DNA of 64,000 nt, from assembly GCF_009914755.1 (NCBI RefSeq), contig NC_060928.1; one strand, 5' to 3'. The stretch comes from the human T2T-CHM13v2.0 reference genome, Homo sapiens. The notes beneath the pieces are model-generated. The model was not told the origin of the DNA and ran no database searches. It saw only the letters and a program-made list of their open reading frames with translations. Below, piece after piece: positions 7,801-26,434 of this stretch (its first letter is position 1; each line of letters starts with the position of its first letter). Made by a program: the position numbers and the translations under genes.

Positions 7801-10800
7801 CTTTAAGTTTTAGGGTACATGTGCACAATGTGCAGGTTAGTTACATATGTATACATGTGACATGCTGGTGCGCTGCACCCACTAGCTCGTCATCTAGCAT
7901 TAGGTATATCTCCCAATGCTATCCCTCCCCCCTCCCCCCACCCCACAACAGTCCCCAGAGTGTGATGTGCCCCTTCCTGTGTCCATGTGTTCTCATTGTT
8001 CAATTCCCACCTATGAGTGAGAATATGTGGTTTTTGGTTTTTTGTTCTTGCAATAGTTTACTGAGAATGATGATTTCCAATTTCATCCATGTCCCTACAA
8101 AGGACATGAACTCATCATTTTTTATGGCTGCATAGTATTCCATGGTGTATATGTGCCACATTTTCTTAATCCAGTCTATCATTGTTGGACATTTGGGTTG
8201 GTTCCAAGTCTTTGCTATTGTGAATAGTGCCACAATAAACATTCGTGTGCATGTGCCTTTATAGCAGCATGATTTATAGTCCTTTGGGTATATACCCAGT
8301 AATGGGATGGCTGGGTCAAATGGTATTTCTAGTTCTAGATCCCTGAGGAATCGCCACACTGTCTTCCACAATGGTTGAACTAGTTTACAGTCCCACCAAC
8401 AGTGTAAAAGTGTTCCTATTTCTCCACATCCTCACAAGCACCTGTTGTTTCCTGACTTTTTAATGATTGCCATTCACACTGGTGTGAGATGATATCTCAT
8501 TGTGGTTTTGATTTGCATTTCTCTGACGGCGAGTGATGGTGAGCATTTTTTCATGTGTTTTTTGGCTGCATAAATGTCTTCTTCTGAGAAGTGGCTGTTC
8601 ATATCCTTCGCCCACTTTTTGATGGGGTTGTTCGTTTTTTCCTTGTAAATTTGTTTGAGTTCATTGTAGATTCTGGATATTAGCCCTTTGTCAGATGAGT
8701 AGGTTGTGAAAATTTTCTCCCATTTTGTGGGTTGCCTATTCACTCTGCTGGTAGTTTCTTTTGCTGTGCAGAAGATCTTTAGTTTAATTAGATCCCATTT
8801 GTCAATTTTGGCTTTTGTTGCCATTGCTTTTGGTGTTTTAGACATGAAGTCCTTGCCCATACCTATGTCCTAAATGGTAATGCCTAGGTTTTCTTCTAGG
8901 GTTTTTATGGTTTTAGGTCTAACGTTTAAGTCTTTAATCCATCTTGAATTGATTTTTGTATAAGGTGTAAGGAAGGGATCCAGTTTCAGCTTTCTACATA
9001 TGGCTAGCCAGTTTTCCCAGCACCATTTATTAAATAGGGAATCCTTTCCCAGTTGCTTGTTTTTCTCAGGTTTGTCAAAGATCAGATAGTTGTAGATATG
9101 TGGCATTATTTCTGAGGGCTCTGTTCTGTTCCATTGATCTATATCTCTGTTTTGGTACCAGTACCATGCTGTTTTGGTTACTGTAGCCTTGTAGTATAGT
9201 TTGAAGCCAGGTAGCGTGATGCCTCCAGCTTTGTTCTTTTGGCTTAGTATTGACTTGGCGATGTGGGCTCTTTTTTGGTTCCATATGAACTTTAAAGTAG
9301 TTTTTTCCAATTCTGTGAAGAAAGTCATTGGTAGCTTGATGGGGGTGGCATTGAATCTATAAATTACCTTGGGCATTATGGCCATTTTCACGATAATTGA
9401 ATCTTCCTACCCATGAGCATGGAATGTTCTCCCATTTCTTTGTATCCTCTTTTATTTCATTGAGCAGTGGTTTGTAGTTCTCCTTGAAGAGGTCCTTCAC
9501 GTCCCTTGTAAGTTGGATTCCTAGGTAGTTTATTCTCTTTGAAGCAATTGTGAATGGGAGTTCACTCATGATTTGACTCTGTGTTTGTCTGTTATTGGTG
9601 TATAAGAATGCTTGTGATTTTTGTACATTGATTTTGTATCCTGAGACTTTGCTGAAGTTGCTTATCAACTTCAGGAGATTTTGGGCTGAGACAATGGGGT
9701 TTTCTAGATATACAATCATGTCGTCCGCAAACAGGGACAATTTGGCTTCCTCTTTTCCTAATTGAATACCCTTTATTTCCTTCTCCTGCCTAATTGCCCT
9801 GGCCAGAACTTCCAACACTATGTTGAATAGGAATGGTGAGAGAGGGCATCCCTGTCTTGTGCCAGTTTTCAAAGGGAATGCTTCCAGTTTTTGCCCATTC
9901 AGTATGATATTGGCTGTGGGTTTGTCATAGATAGCTCTTATTATTTTGAGATACGTCCCATCAATACCTAATTTATTGAGAGTTTTTACTATGAAGGGTT
10001 GTTGAATTTTGTCAAAGGCCTTTTCTGCATCTATTGAGATAATCATGTGGTTTTTGTCTTTGGTTCTGTTTATATGCTGGATTACATTTATTGATTTGCG
10101 TATATTGAACCAGACTTGCATCCCAGGGATGAAGCCCACTTGATCATGGTGGATAAACTTTTTGATGTGCTGCTGGATTCAGTTTGCCAGTATTTTATTG
10201 AGGATTTTTGCATCAATGTTCATCAAGGATATTGGTCTAAAATTCTCCTTTTTCATTGTGTCTCTGCCCAGCTTTGGTATCAGGATGATGCTGGCCTCAT
10301 AAAATGGGTTAGGGAGGATTCCCTGTTTTTCTATTGATTGGAATAGTTTCAGAAGGAATGGTACCAGTTCCTCCTGTACCTCTGGTAGAATTCGGCTGTG
10401 AATCCATCTGGTCCTGGACTTTTTTTGGTTGATAAGCCATTGATTATTGCCACAATTTCAGCTCCTGTTATTGGTCTATTCAGAGATTCAACTTCTTCCT
10501 GGTTTAGTCTTGGGAGAGTGTATGTGTCGAGGAATTTATCCATTTCTTCTAGATTTTCTAGTTTATTTGCGTAGAGGTGTTTGTAGTATTCTCTGATGGT
10601 AGTTTGTATATCTGTGGCGTTGGTGGTGATATCCCCTTTATCCTTTTTTATTGCATCTATTTGATTCTTCTCTCCTTTTTTCTTTATTAGTCTTGCTAGT
10701 GGTCTATCAATTTTGTTGATCTTTTCAAAAAACCAGCTCCTGGATTCATTAATTTTTTGAAGGGTTTTTTGTGTCTCTATTTCCTTTGATTTTAGTTATT

Positions 10801-24200: not shown

Positions 24201-26434
24201 TCTATCAATTTTGTTGAACTTTTCAAAAAAACAGCTCCTGGATTCATTGATTTTTTGAAGGGTTTTTTGTGTCTCTGTGTCCTTCAGTTCTGCTCTGATC
24301 TTAGTTATTTCTTGCCTTCTGCTAGCTTTTGAATGTGTTTGCTCTTGCTTCTCTAGTTCTTTTAATTGTGATGTTAGGGTGTCAATTTTGAATCTTTCCT
24401 GCTTTCTCTTGTGGGCATTCAGTGCTATAAATTTCCCTCTACACACTGCTTTGAATGTGTCCCAGAGATTCTGGTATGTTGTGTCTTTGTTCTCGTTGGT
24501 TTCAAAGAACATCTTTATTTCTGCCTTCATTTTGTTATGTACCCAGTAGTCATTCAGGAGGAGGTTGTTCAGTTTCCATGTAGTTGAGCGGTTTTGAGTG
24601 AGTTTCTTAATCCTGAGTTCTAGTTTGATTGCACTGTGGTCTGAGAGACAGTTTGTTATAATTTCTGTTCTTTTACATTTGCTGAGGAGTGCTTTACTTC
24701 CAACTATATGGTCAATTTTGGAATAAGTGCCAGGTGGTGCTGAGAAGAATGTATATTCTGTTGATTTGGAGGGGAGAGTTCTATAGATGTCTATTAGGTC
24801 TTCTTGGTGCAGAGCTCAGTTCAATTCCTGGATATCCTTGTTAACTTTCTGTCTTGTTGATCATCTAGTGTTGACAGTGGGGTGTTAAAGTCTCCCATTA
24901 TTTTTGTGTGGGAGTCTAAGTCTCTTTGCAGGTCTCTAAGGACTTGCTTTATGAATCTGGGTGCTCCTGTATTGGGTGCATATATATTTAGGATAGTTAG
25001 CTCTTCTTTTTGAATTGATCCCTTTACCATTATGTAATGGCCTTCTTTGTCTCTTTTGATCTTTGTTGGTTTAAAGTCTGTTTTATCAGAGACTAGGATT
25101 GCAACCCCTGCCTTTTTTTGCTTTCCATTTACTTGGTAGATCTTCCTCCATCCCTTTATTTTGAGCCTATGTGTGTCTCTGCAGGTGAGATGGGTTTCCT
25201 GAATACAGCACACTAATGGGTCTTGACTCTTTATCCAATTTGCCAGTCTGTGTCTTTTAATTGGATCATTTAGCTCATTTACATTTAAGGTTAATATTGT
25301 TATGTATGAATTTGATACTGTCATTATGATGTTAACTGGTTAGTTTGCTCGTTGGTTGATGCAGTTTCTTCCTAGCATCAATGGTCTTTACAATTTGGCA
25401 TTTTTTTGCAGTGGCTGGTAGCAGTTGTTCCTTTCCATGTTGAGTGCTTCCTTCAGGAGCTCTTGTAAGGCAGGCCTGGTGGTGACAAAATCTCTCAGCA
25501 TTTGCTTGTCTGTAAAGTATTTTATTTCTCCTTCACTTATTAAACTTAGTTTGGTTGGATATGATATTCTGGGTTGAAAATTCTTTTCTTTAAGAATGTT
25601 GAATATTGGCCCCTACTCTCTTCTGGCTTGTAGAGTTTCTGCCGAGAGATCAGCTGTTAGTCTGATGGGCTTCTCTTTGTGGGTAACCCGACCTTTCTCT
25701 CTGGCTGCCCTTAACATTTTTTCCTTCATTTCAACTTTGGTGAATCTGACAATTATGTGTCTTGGAGTTGCTCTTCTCGAGAAGTATCTTTGTGGCGTTC
25801 TCTGTATTTCCTGAATTTGAATGTTGGCCTGCCTTGCTAGGTTGGGGAAGTTCTCCTGGATAATATCCTGCAGAGTGTTTTCCAACTTGGTTCCATTCTC
25901 CCCATCACTTTCAGGTACACCAATCAGATGTAGATTTGGTCTTTTCACATAGTCCCATATTTCTTGGAGGCTTTGTTCGTTTCTTTTTATTCTTTCTTCT
26001 CTAAACTTCTCTTCTTACTTCATTTCATTCATTTGATCTTCAATCACTGATACCCTTTCTTCCAGTTGATCAAACCAGCTACTGAAGCTTGTGCATTCAT
26101 CACGTAGTTCTTGTGCCATGGTTTTCAGCTCCATCAGGTTATTTAAGGACTTCTCTATGTTGGTTATTCTAGTTAGCCATTCGTCTAATCTTTTTTCAAG
26201 TTTTTTAACTTTTTTGCGATGGATTCGAACTTCCTCCTTTAGCTCGGAGAAGTTTGGTCGTCTGAAGCCTTCTTCTCTCAACTCATCAATGTCATTCTCC
26301 ATCCACCGTTTTTCCATTGCTGGTGAGGAGCTGCGTTCCTCAGTTGGAAATGCAGAAATCACCCATCTTCTGCATCACTCATGCTGGTAGCTGTAGACTG
26401 GAGCTGTTCCTATTCAGCCATCTTGGAACCACCC
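21286..26434 (-). mobile_element. L1PA4/L1PA5-type LINE-1 with intact 5' terminus but spliced 5'UTR/ORF1 (SpIRE); ORFs disrupted (element L1-B)
   Basis: The 5' end gggtggttccaagatggctgaataggaacagctcc is joined directly to ORF1. EN, RT and C-terminal ORF fragments are in the track. Older 3'UTR diagnostics (gcaggtttgttac, catttacattagg). TSD aacctcttt (21277-21285) / aacttcttt (26435-26443). Confidence 0.96.

What the first reader, a model, noticed from the sequence alone, without database searches (positions are those of the whole stretch)
8775..24817. At least five further short shared patches along the same L1 pair: mosaic, possibly bidirectional conversion
Seen: extra non-canonical variants occur in both copies at 8775/22276 (LKIFC vs canonical LKSFC), 9207/22708 (gaagccagg vs gaagtcagg), 9833/23330 (LSPFLF vs LSPLLF), 10114/23611 (GMQVWF vs GMQGWF) and 11304/24817 (gagctcag; the L1 at position 155 has canonical gagctgag). 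Each is bracketed by A/B differences within about 30-80 bp, some of them subfamily-diagnostic, so the tracts are short and discontinuous. From recalled consensuses, A also carries an older-type gtcttccac (about 8361) and B a younger-type gagaatatg (about 21519), which hints at exchange in both directions. Inference: repeated short conversions, or patchy mismatch repair of one long heteroduplex. This would be local concerted evolution of L1 neighbours, which is better known for adjacent Alus.
Basis: partly seen in the sequence, partly recalled or inferred. Interest (0 to 1): 0.7.

Follow-up and report, generated by a model that had tools for sequence, protein, structure and literature searches.

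The report
Neighbouring L1 copies swap short patches
Three broken L1 jumping-gene copies lying 11-25 kb apart on human chromosome 4 share many more rare mutations than unlinked copies do, most likely because short pieces were copied between them by gene conversion, and a small genome-wide check suggests other neighbouring L1 copies likely do the same.

Summary
All five shared alleles are present in L1 copies A (7784-12257) and B (21285-26400). Four are absent from all 31 unlinked copies, one is in 1 of 27; the two with a measured denominator are in 0.5-0.75% of copies genome-wide. They mark no minor subfamily. Outside the main 201-bp patch A and B share 6 rare alleles against 1.2 expected (P=0.002), so about one may be chance. 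New here: a third neighbour, C, 11 kb upstream, shares 8 rare alleles with A (0.6-0.8 expected); two are in all three copies. Fifteen lineage markers stay unconverted between patches, excluding one long tract. Genome-wide, carriers of the same rare allele lie within 25 kb in 8 of 1790 pairs versus 3 of 5222 control pairs (P=0.0014; 0.011 after dropping two doubtful pairs), with no excess beyond 25 kb. Best reading: repeated short non-allelic gene conversion among neighbours (0.8). The process is known for Alus and for single L1 cases; I found no distance-dependent L1 survey in the library searched.

The parts
7784..12257 (-). L1 copy A, 5'-truncated, younger group (about 96% to the young panel; label L1PA3-like is recalled, no repeat-annotation call)
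21285..26400 (-). L1 copy B, older group (about 94.4% to its best genome matches, 93.2% to A; label L1PA5-like is recalled)
1..224 (-). L1 copy C, in-window end of its collinear part; the rest lies upstream (chr4:120,958,621-120,962,000, locus L031). Same younger group as A, 95.6% to A
271..1714 (+). Inverted 5' part of copy C (5' inversion); a 17-bp target-site duplication with one mismatch at about 1713-1729 matches the sequence beyond its tail
8767..8798 (.). 32-bp identical A/B run with rare allele at 8775 (B 22276); also in C. 115 genome matches against 15,292 for the common allele
9174..9247 (.). 74-bp identical A/B run with rare allele at 9207 (B 22708); 82 genome matches
9278..9478 (.). 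Main 201-bp identical A/B patch (B 22779-22979): rare alleles 9345, 9376, 9401, 9431 (9431 also in C), an extra base near 9395, and an A/C-lineage base at 9438 in B
9824..9905 (.). 82-bp identical A/B run with rare allele at 9833 (B 23330); 207 genome matches
10105..10156 (.). 52-bp identical A/B run with rare allele at 10114 (B 23611); 162 genome matches; bounded on the left by a lineage marker at 10104
11290..11318 (.). 29-bp identical A/B run with rare allele at 11304 (B 24817); 24 genome matches against 4,789 for the common allele
8353..8379 (.). 27-bp identical A/B run with the older-type base at 8362 (B 21863); weak hint of B-to-A transfer
10833..10929 (.). 97-bp identical A/C run with two rare alleles (10855, 10875); the double allele has 8 genome matches, A and C among them
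10970..11080 (.). 110-bp identical A/C run with rare alleles 10989 and 11049 (and a CpG change at 10986), separated from the previous run by four C-only differences
8243..8243 (.). Rare allele shared by A and C only (157-bp identical run)
9528..9528 (.). Rare allele shared by A and C only (34-bp identical run)

Best explanation
Three separately inserted L1 copies (C, A, B; same strand, 11.2 and 13.5 kb apart) share rare mutations in short patches, most likely because repeated non-allelic gene conversion copied tracts of tens to about 200 bases between neighbours after they inserted. Shown: the alleles, their rarity, the excess over unlinked pairs, unrelated flanks, and unconverted lineage markers between the patches. 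Inferred: a break or stalled fork in one copy is repaired on the nearby 93-96% identical copy without crossover (a crossover between these direct repeats would delete or duplicate the 11-13 kb between them); several events occurred, since two alleles sit in all three copies; roughly a tenth of each copy has been overwritten (7 shared of 55-74 private alleles). Direction and dates are not shown.
For: Pair-exclusive non-CpG alleles in 3693 columns: A-B 7, A-C 8, B-C 5, against at most 2 in 130 young-by-old and 325 young-by-young unlinked pairs. Scaled to each copy's mutation load: A-B 7 vs 0.73 (P=1e-5), outside the main patch 4 vs 0.69 (P=0.0055), A-C 8 vs 0.6-0.8 (P about 1e-6). Allele frequencies 0.75% and 0.5% where measured. 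Only one other listed copy carries two of the alleles. In the main patch A and B are the only 100% matches among 40 scored of 730 candidates; the next best is 95%. 15 of 22 non-CpG lineage markers between 8775 and 11304 keep the A and B states, among 156 differing columns. No similarity between the flanks of A, B and C in 6 of 6 comparisons. Sharing is weakest for the farthest pair, B-C at 24.7 kb (4 vs 0.87). Genome-wide pilot: 8 of 1790 same-allele pairs within 25 kb vs 3 of 5222 different-allele pairs, none in excess beyond 25 kb; four of those pairs at 90-97% identity share 5-10 further exclusive alleles in 670-900 bp vs 0.23 per kb in unlinked pairs, and the chr4:101.1 Mb pair has two tails with unrelated 3' flanks.
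Against: The short runs (27-82 bp) are not significant by length, and unlinked pairs reach identical runs of 187-202 bp (4 of 130). About one of the six A-B single sites is expected by chance and cannot be singled out. B-C is marginal (P 0.01-0.07). The panel is small (26 young, 5 old); B shares 5 exclusive alleles with the unlinked copy L033, so an under-sampled lineage can mimic sharing, which bears on A-C. Lineage-marker switches are not in excess. No GC bias is visible (6 weak-to-strong and 5 strong-to-weak among 16 shared alleles, read). In the pilot, one pair is 98% identical and looks like a duplication, one is an old 1.1-kb pair, and two share 0 or 1 further allele. One assembly only.
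Confidence: 0.8

Rival explanations
1. One long heteroduplex per pair, repaired in patches, or copying from the neighbour while a new copy was being inserted: few events, many patches.
For: Shared alleles are scattered over 2.5-3 kb, and the two A-C runs lie 40 bp apart. Patchy chimeras between new and resident L1 in cell assays are recalled; the paper I tried was not held.
Against: Three copies take part, so at least two events are needed. 156 columns still differ across the span; that a 6%-mismatched heteroduplex of 2.5 kb is unstable is my own knowledge. A and C are of similar age, so at insertion neither had many private mutations to give (inference).
Confidence: 0.08
2. The single-site matches are independent repeat mutations; only the 201-bp patch is a true conversion.
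For: Each allele exists in 24-207 other copies; the runs are short; 0.7-1.2 such matches are expected.
Against: P=0.002-0.006 for A-B outside the patch and about 1e-6 for A-C; neighbour excess genome-wide against a control that shares L1 clustering and local mutation rate.
Confidence: 0.05
3. Shared descent: A and C come from one minor source element, and the A-B alleles belong to unrecognised sub-lineages.
For: A and C group together and share a lineage base at 9438 with 3 of 26 young copies; the 10855+10875 double allele occurs in 6 other copies; B and L033 show that lineage sharing can reach 5.
Against: None of those 6 copies has the 11049 allele and only 1 has 10989; they are 89-95% identical to A, so of mixed age. 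No other copy among 40 scored of 734 has fewer than 3 mismatches to A over 10845-11060. A and B are in different groups, and their alleles co-occur in only one other listed copy.
Confidence: 0.05
4. Old local duplication or an assembly or polishing error mixed the copies.
For: One assembly only; one of the eight pilot pairs does look duplicated.
Against: Flanks unrelated, different 5' ends, own target-site duplication at C; lineage markers kept; misplaced reads would go to the 96-98% identical copies elsewhere, not to a 93% neighbour (inference).
Confidence: 0.02

Closest known systems
Sequence homogenisation of neighbouring Alus by non-allelic gene conversion (Aleshin and Zhi 2010; not held, seen only as summarised in passages of PMC6598467 and PMC8230782)
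   Same: Same signal: shared non-diagnostic mutations between nearby copies, falling with distance.
   Different: Here L1, not Alu; the Alu range is given as about 10 kb, here sharing is seen at 11-14 kb and in the pilot up to about 23 kb; long elements let several separate patches be mapped in one pair. I could not check whether that paper also tested L1.
Single L1-to-L1 conversions (Frith and Khan 2018, PMC5829575, passages: one conversion between L1PA3 copies within a long read, and conversion at an L1PA7-flanked inversion; Burton 1991 seen only as a title in a reference list)
   Same: Local conversion between L1 copies in the human genome.
   Different: Those are single events; here many short patches among three copies, across two age groups, with a distance-dependent excess genome-wide.
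Non-allelic conversion between gene duplicates and segmental duplications (Harpak et al., 10.1101/135152, abstract and section 7; Vollger et al., PMC10172114, passages)
   Same: Tract scale (mean 250 bp) and rate (2.5e-7 per base per generation) are of the order needed here.
   Different: A and B differ by about 6.5%, beyond the 3-4.5% thresholds modelled by Harpak et al.; Vollger et al. define duplications so as to leave out alignments made only of common repeats.

Membership tests
Non-allelic gene conversion between neighbouring repeats | Copies inserted separately, not duplicated together | tested here: met
   No flank similarity in 6 of 6 comparisons; different 5' ends; target-site duplication at C; none found for A or B by the script
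Non-allelic gene conversion between neighbouring repeats | Shared non-diagnostic, non-CpG alleles above unlinked pairs | tested here: met
Non-allelic gene conversion between neighbouring repeats | Alleles not markers of a subfamily | tested here: met
   0.5-0.75% where measured; almost no co-occurrence; three lists were cut at 100 rows
Non-allelic gene conversion between neighbouring repeats | Mosaic: tracts bounded by retained differences | tested here: met
   15 of 22 lineage markers retained, 156 differing columns
Non-allelic gene conversion between neighbouring repeats | Sharing falls with distance | tested here: met
   Pilot only: 4 vs 0 expected under 10 kb, 4 vs 1.0 at 10-25 kb, 1 vs 1.0 at 25-50 kb; P 0.0014 to 0.03 as 0 to 3 pairs are dropped
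Non-allelic gene conversion between neighbouring repeats | One-way transfer with an identified donor and acceptor | tested here: inconclusive
   9438 hints A to B, 8362 and 10421 hint B to A; none beyond background
Non-allelic gene conversion between neighbouring repeats | GC bias of converted alleles | tested here: inconclusive
   6 weak-to-strong, 5 strong-to-weak, 5 neutral among 16 shared alleles (read)
Non-allelic gene conversion between neighbouring repeats | Pre-conversion state seen in orthologues or other haplotypes | not testable with these tools
   No relatives of this genome are held
Segmental or tandem duplication | Homology extends into flanks and lineage markers are shared throughout | tested here: not met

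The most novel reading that the evidence does not exclude
Primate L1 copies within about 25 kb of each other form local exchange networks: short conversions keep running between copies 4-7% apart and across subfamilies, overwriting about a tenth of each copy in dense clusters. L1 sequences would then carry a readable genome-wide record of short-range ectopic repair, and ages, subfamily calls and recombinant calls of clustered L1s would be biased.
Probability: 0.5. Interest if true: 0.68.

Novelty: new member of a known kind. Interest (0 to 1): 0.52.

Why it matters
It extends neighbour-dependent gene conversion, described for Alus, to multi-kilobase L1 copies, and shows it acting (by inference) at about 6% divergence, where models for gene duplicates expect escape. 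It gives a cheap test: count same-allele neighbours against different-allele neighbours over all L1PA copies. That would yield rate, tract length and distance decay of ectopic repair from one genome. No effect on LINC01378, in whose intron the copies lie, is claimed.

Tried and rejected
Run-length (GENECONV-like) permutation: finds only the 201-bp patch; A-C (P=0.07) and B-C (P=0.08) do not pass. Direction tests with lineage markers: no excess. Minor subfamily: rejected. Duplication of A, B, C: rejected. Target-site duplications of A and B: none found by script. GC bias: none visible. Junction reads for the chr8 pilot pair did not settle whether it is a duplication, because one copy joins ORF2 directly to 3' sequence and its own tail was not read. 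A large panel of thousands of copies was not available, so the null rests on 31 copies. Literature: nine searches found no survey of conversion between neighbouring L1 copies; subscription papers are mostly missing, Aleshin and Zhi 2010 was not held, and no supplements were read.
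Full report
Setting. The window is human chr4 (T2T-CHM13), inside an intron of LINC01378 (hub annotation). A self-comparison shows two minus-strand L1 copies, A (7784-12257) and B (21285-26400), 93.2% identical over 4.5 kb, and pieces of a third at 1-224 and, inverted, 271-1714. The third copy, C, continues upstream of the window and has a 5' inversion and a 17-bp target-site duplication. 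The flanks of A, B and C are unrelated in 6 of 6 comparisons, so they are separate insertions. Subfamily names (L1PA3-like for A and C, L1PA5-like for B) are recalled labels; my calls show only that A and C fall with a younger group and B with an older group.

Panel. I used 31 unlinked copies: 28 of the 30 loci from a search with A (the two dropped are A and B themselves) and 3 of the 43 rows from a search with B. That gives 26 young and 5 old copies. The young ones were chosen for likeness to A, which should raise, not lower, chance sharing with A. Counts use the 3693 columns covered by at least 15 copies; CpG transitions are left out.

Observation. All five alleles are in both copies at the stated places. 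Four are in 0 of 31 panel copies and 11304 is in 1 of 27. Genome-wide exact matches to 24-29-base motifs: 8775 115, 9207 82, 9833 207, 10114 162, 11304 24. The common alleles were counted for two sites only: 15,292 and 4,789, giving 0.75% and 0.5%. Identical runs around the five sites are 32, 74, 82, 52 and 29 bp; the main patch is 201 bp.

Is it more than chance? Alleles found in both members of a pair and in no other panel copy (the third neighbour ignored): A-B 7, A-C 8, B-C 5 (one of these an inserted base). Unlinked young-by-old pairs: 91 with none, 33 with one, 6 with two, of 130; young-by-young at most 2 in 325; old-by-old at most 3 in 10; B with the five old copies 0, 1, 2, 2 and 5. 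After scaling to the mutation load of both copies, A-B is 7 against 0.73, and outside the main patch 4 against 0.69 (P=0.0055); allowing one other carrier, 6 against 1.22 (P=0.0017). A-C is 8 against 0.6-0.8 (P 2e-6 to 2e-7). B-C is 4-5 against 0.9-1.7 (P 0.01-0.03; outside the patch 0.05-0.07). So the set is real, and about one single-site match is likely independent mutation. A run-length test sees only the main patch (P=0.0003); unlinked pairs also reach runs of 187-202 bp in 4 of 130 cases, so the rare alleles, not the lengths, carry the evidence.

Not a minor subfamily. Across the six lists (three cut at 100 rows: 100 of 115, 207 and 162) one other copy carries two of the alleles. For the main patch A and B are the only perfect matches among 40 scored of 730 candidates, the next being 95%. 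The A-C double allele at 10855 and 10875 has 8 matches: A, C, another neighbouring pair on chr3, and four singles. None of the six others has the 11049 allele, one has 10989, and they are 89-95% identical to A. No other copy among 40 scored of 734 has fewer than 3 mismatches to A over 10845-11060. Shared descent of A and C is not fully excluded, because their sub-lineage is thinly sampled.

Shape and direction. Between 8775 and 11304, 156 columns differ and 15 of 22 non-CpG lineage markers keep the A and B states; of the other 7, four are alike in both copies (8926, 10421, 10722, 10881) and three are private changes. One long converted tract is excluded. The alleles at 8775 and 9431 are in all three copies, which needs more than one event. 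Direction is weak: B has an A/C-lineage base at 9438 (3 of 26 young, 0 of 5 old), hinting A to B; A has older-type bases at 8362 and 10421, hinting B to A. But A carries 1 of 10 old-only alleles against 12 of 262 in unlinked young copies, and B 1 of 20 young-only alleles against 1-6 of 20-25 in old copies.

Genome-wide pilot. With the 13 rows of this locus dropped, carriers of the same rare allele lie within 25 kb in 8 of 1790 same-chromosome pairs; carriers of different alleles, a control that shares L1 clustering and local mutation rate, in 3 of 5222 (Fisher P=0.0014). By distance, observed against expected: 4 and 0 under 10 kb, 4 and 1.0 at 10-25 kb, 1 and 1.0 at 25-50 kb, 2 and 1.7 at 50-100 kb, 5 and 3.8, 21 and 19.2, 41 and 47.0 beyond. 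I read 900 bp around each member of all 8 pairs. One (chr10) is 98.3% identical with 22 further shared alleles and looks duplicated; one (chr3:103 Mb) is an old 1.1-kb pair that my panel cannot judge; dropping both gives P=0.011, dropping a third 0.03. Of the other six, four share further exclusive alleles: chr8 10 in 853 bp (96.6%), chr4 9 in 897 (94.9%), chr1 5 in 717 (96.1%), chr3:67 Mb 5 in 666 (90.2%); chr11 shares 1 and chr15 none; unlinked pairs share 4 in 17,149 bp. Markers of older lineages missing from the panel may inflate these counts. The chr4 pair has two tails with unrelated 3' flanks; in the chr1 pair one copy has a 5' inversion where the other runs straight on; the chr8 pair is unresolved. 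Both orientations occur among the pairs.

Mechanism. Most likely repeated non-crossover repair using the nearest homologous L1 as template (0.8). Shown: excess sharing, mosaic shape, separate insertions, three partners, a distance effect in a pilot. Inferred: repair pathway, number of events, direction, dates. Seven shared of 55-74 private alleles suggests about a tenth of each copy overwritten; at the rate reported for gene duplicates (2.5e-7 per base per generation, 10.1101/135152, abstract) some hundred thousand generations would suffice, so no special mechanism is needed.

Known work. Neighbouring Alus show this signal within about 10 kb (Aleshin and Zhi 2010, seen only through passages of PMC6598467 and PMC8230782). 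A conversion between two L1PA3 copies is reported in PMC5829575 (passages). A pangenome L1 preprint screens recombinant copies against donor groups; the passages I saw do not treat physical neighbours (PMC13192797). Harpak et al. model escape from conversion at 3-4.5% divergence (section 7). PMC5640379 and PMC10172114 were seen as passages. Nine searches found no survey of neighbour-dependent conversion in L1; the library lacks most subscription papers, and no supplements were read.

Verdict. Observation confirmed and extended to a third copy; local short-tract conversion supported; two-way exchange unproven. A new member of a known kind, interest 0.52; if the genome-wide L1 effect holds at full scale, 0.68.

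Noticed in passing
window 1-1729 and L031:1021-4401: Copy C, a 5'-inverted L1 with a 17-bp target-site duplication, shares 8 rare alleles with A; two tracts of about 100 bp lie 40 bp apart.
   Followed up: yes
L045/L046 (chr4:101,096,409 and 101,112,168), L043/L044 (chr8:65,856,056 and 65,863,013), L047/L048 (chr1:157,371,531 and 157,376,205), L049/L050 (chr3:67,184,107 and 67,202,368): Other neighbouring L1 pairs sharing 5-10 further rare alleles in under 1 kb; the chr8 pair has a 341-bp identical run at 96.6% identity. Candidates for the same process.
   Followed up: partly
L037/L038 (chr10:21,124,869 and 21,130,441): Inverted L1 pair 5.6 kb apart, 98.3% identical, most private alleles shared: inverted duplication or near-complete conversion.
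   Followed up: partly
chr14:16,873,363 and 16,878,951; chr6:50,944,549 and 50,968,728: Further inverted L1 neighbours turning up together among the 40 best matches to variant-rich queries.
   Followed up: no
window 19215-21291 and 26430-26508: B appears to sit inside an LTR-type repeat (19215-19519 matches 20990-21291 at 84%; 19544-21150 matches 61842-63598); the MaLR (THE1/MST) name is recalled, not from a call.
   Followed up: no
window about 26340: B is near full length but seems to lack part of its 5' UTR at a junction near 26340 (match to C's inverted part stops there; extent judged from recall).
   Followed up: no
window 10855 and 10875: The double allele occurs in 8 copies of mixed age, more than two independent alleles of about 1% would give; both changes are A to C before ATT, perhaps a context-dependent mutation.
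   Followed up: partly
window 10786 and 11139 (A), about 23080 (B): Small private deletions: 11 bp and 4 bp in A, 4 bp in B; none is shared, so none lies in a converted tract.
   Followed up: no
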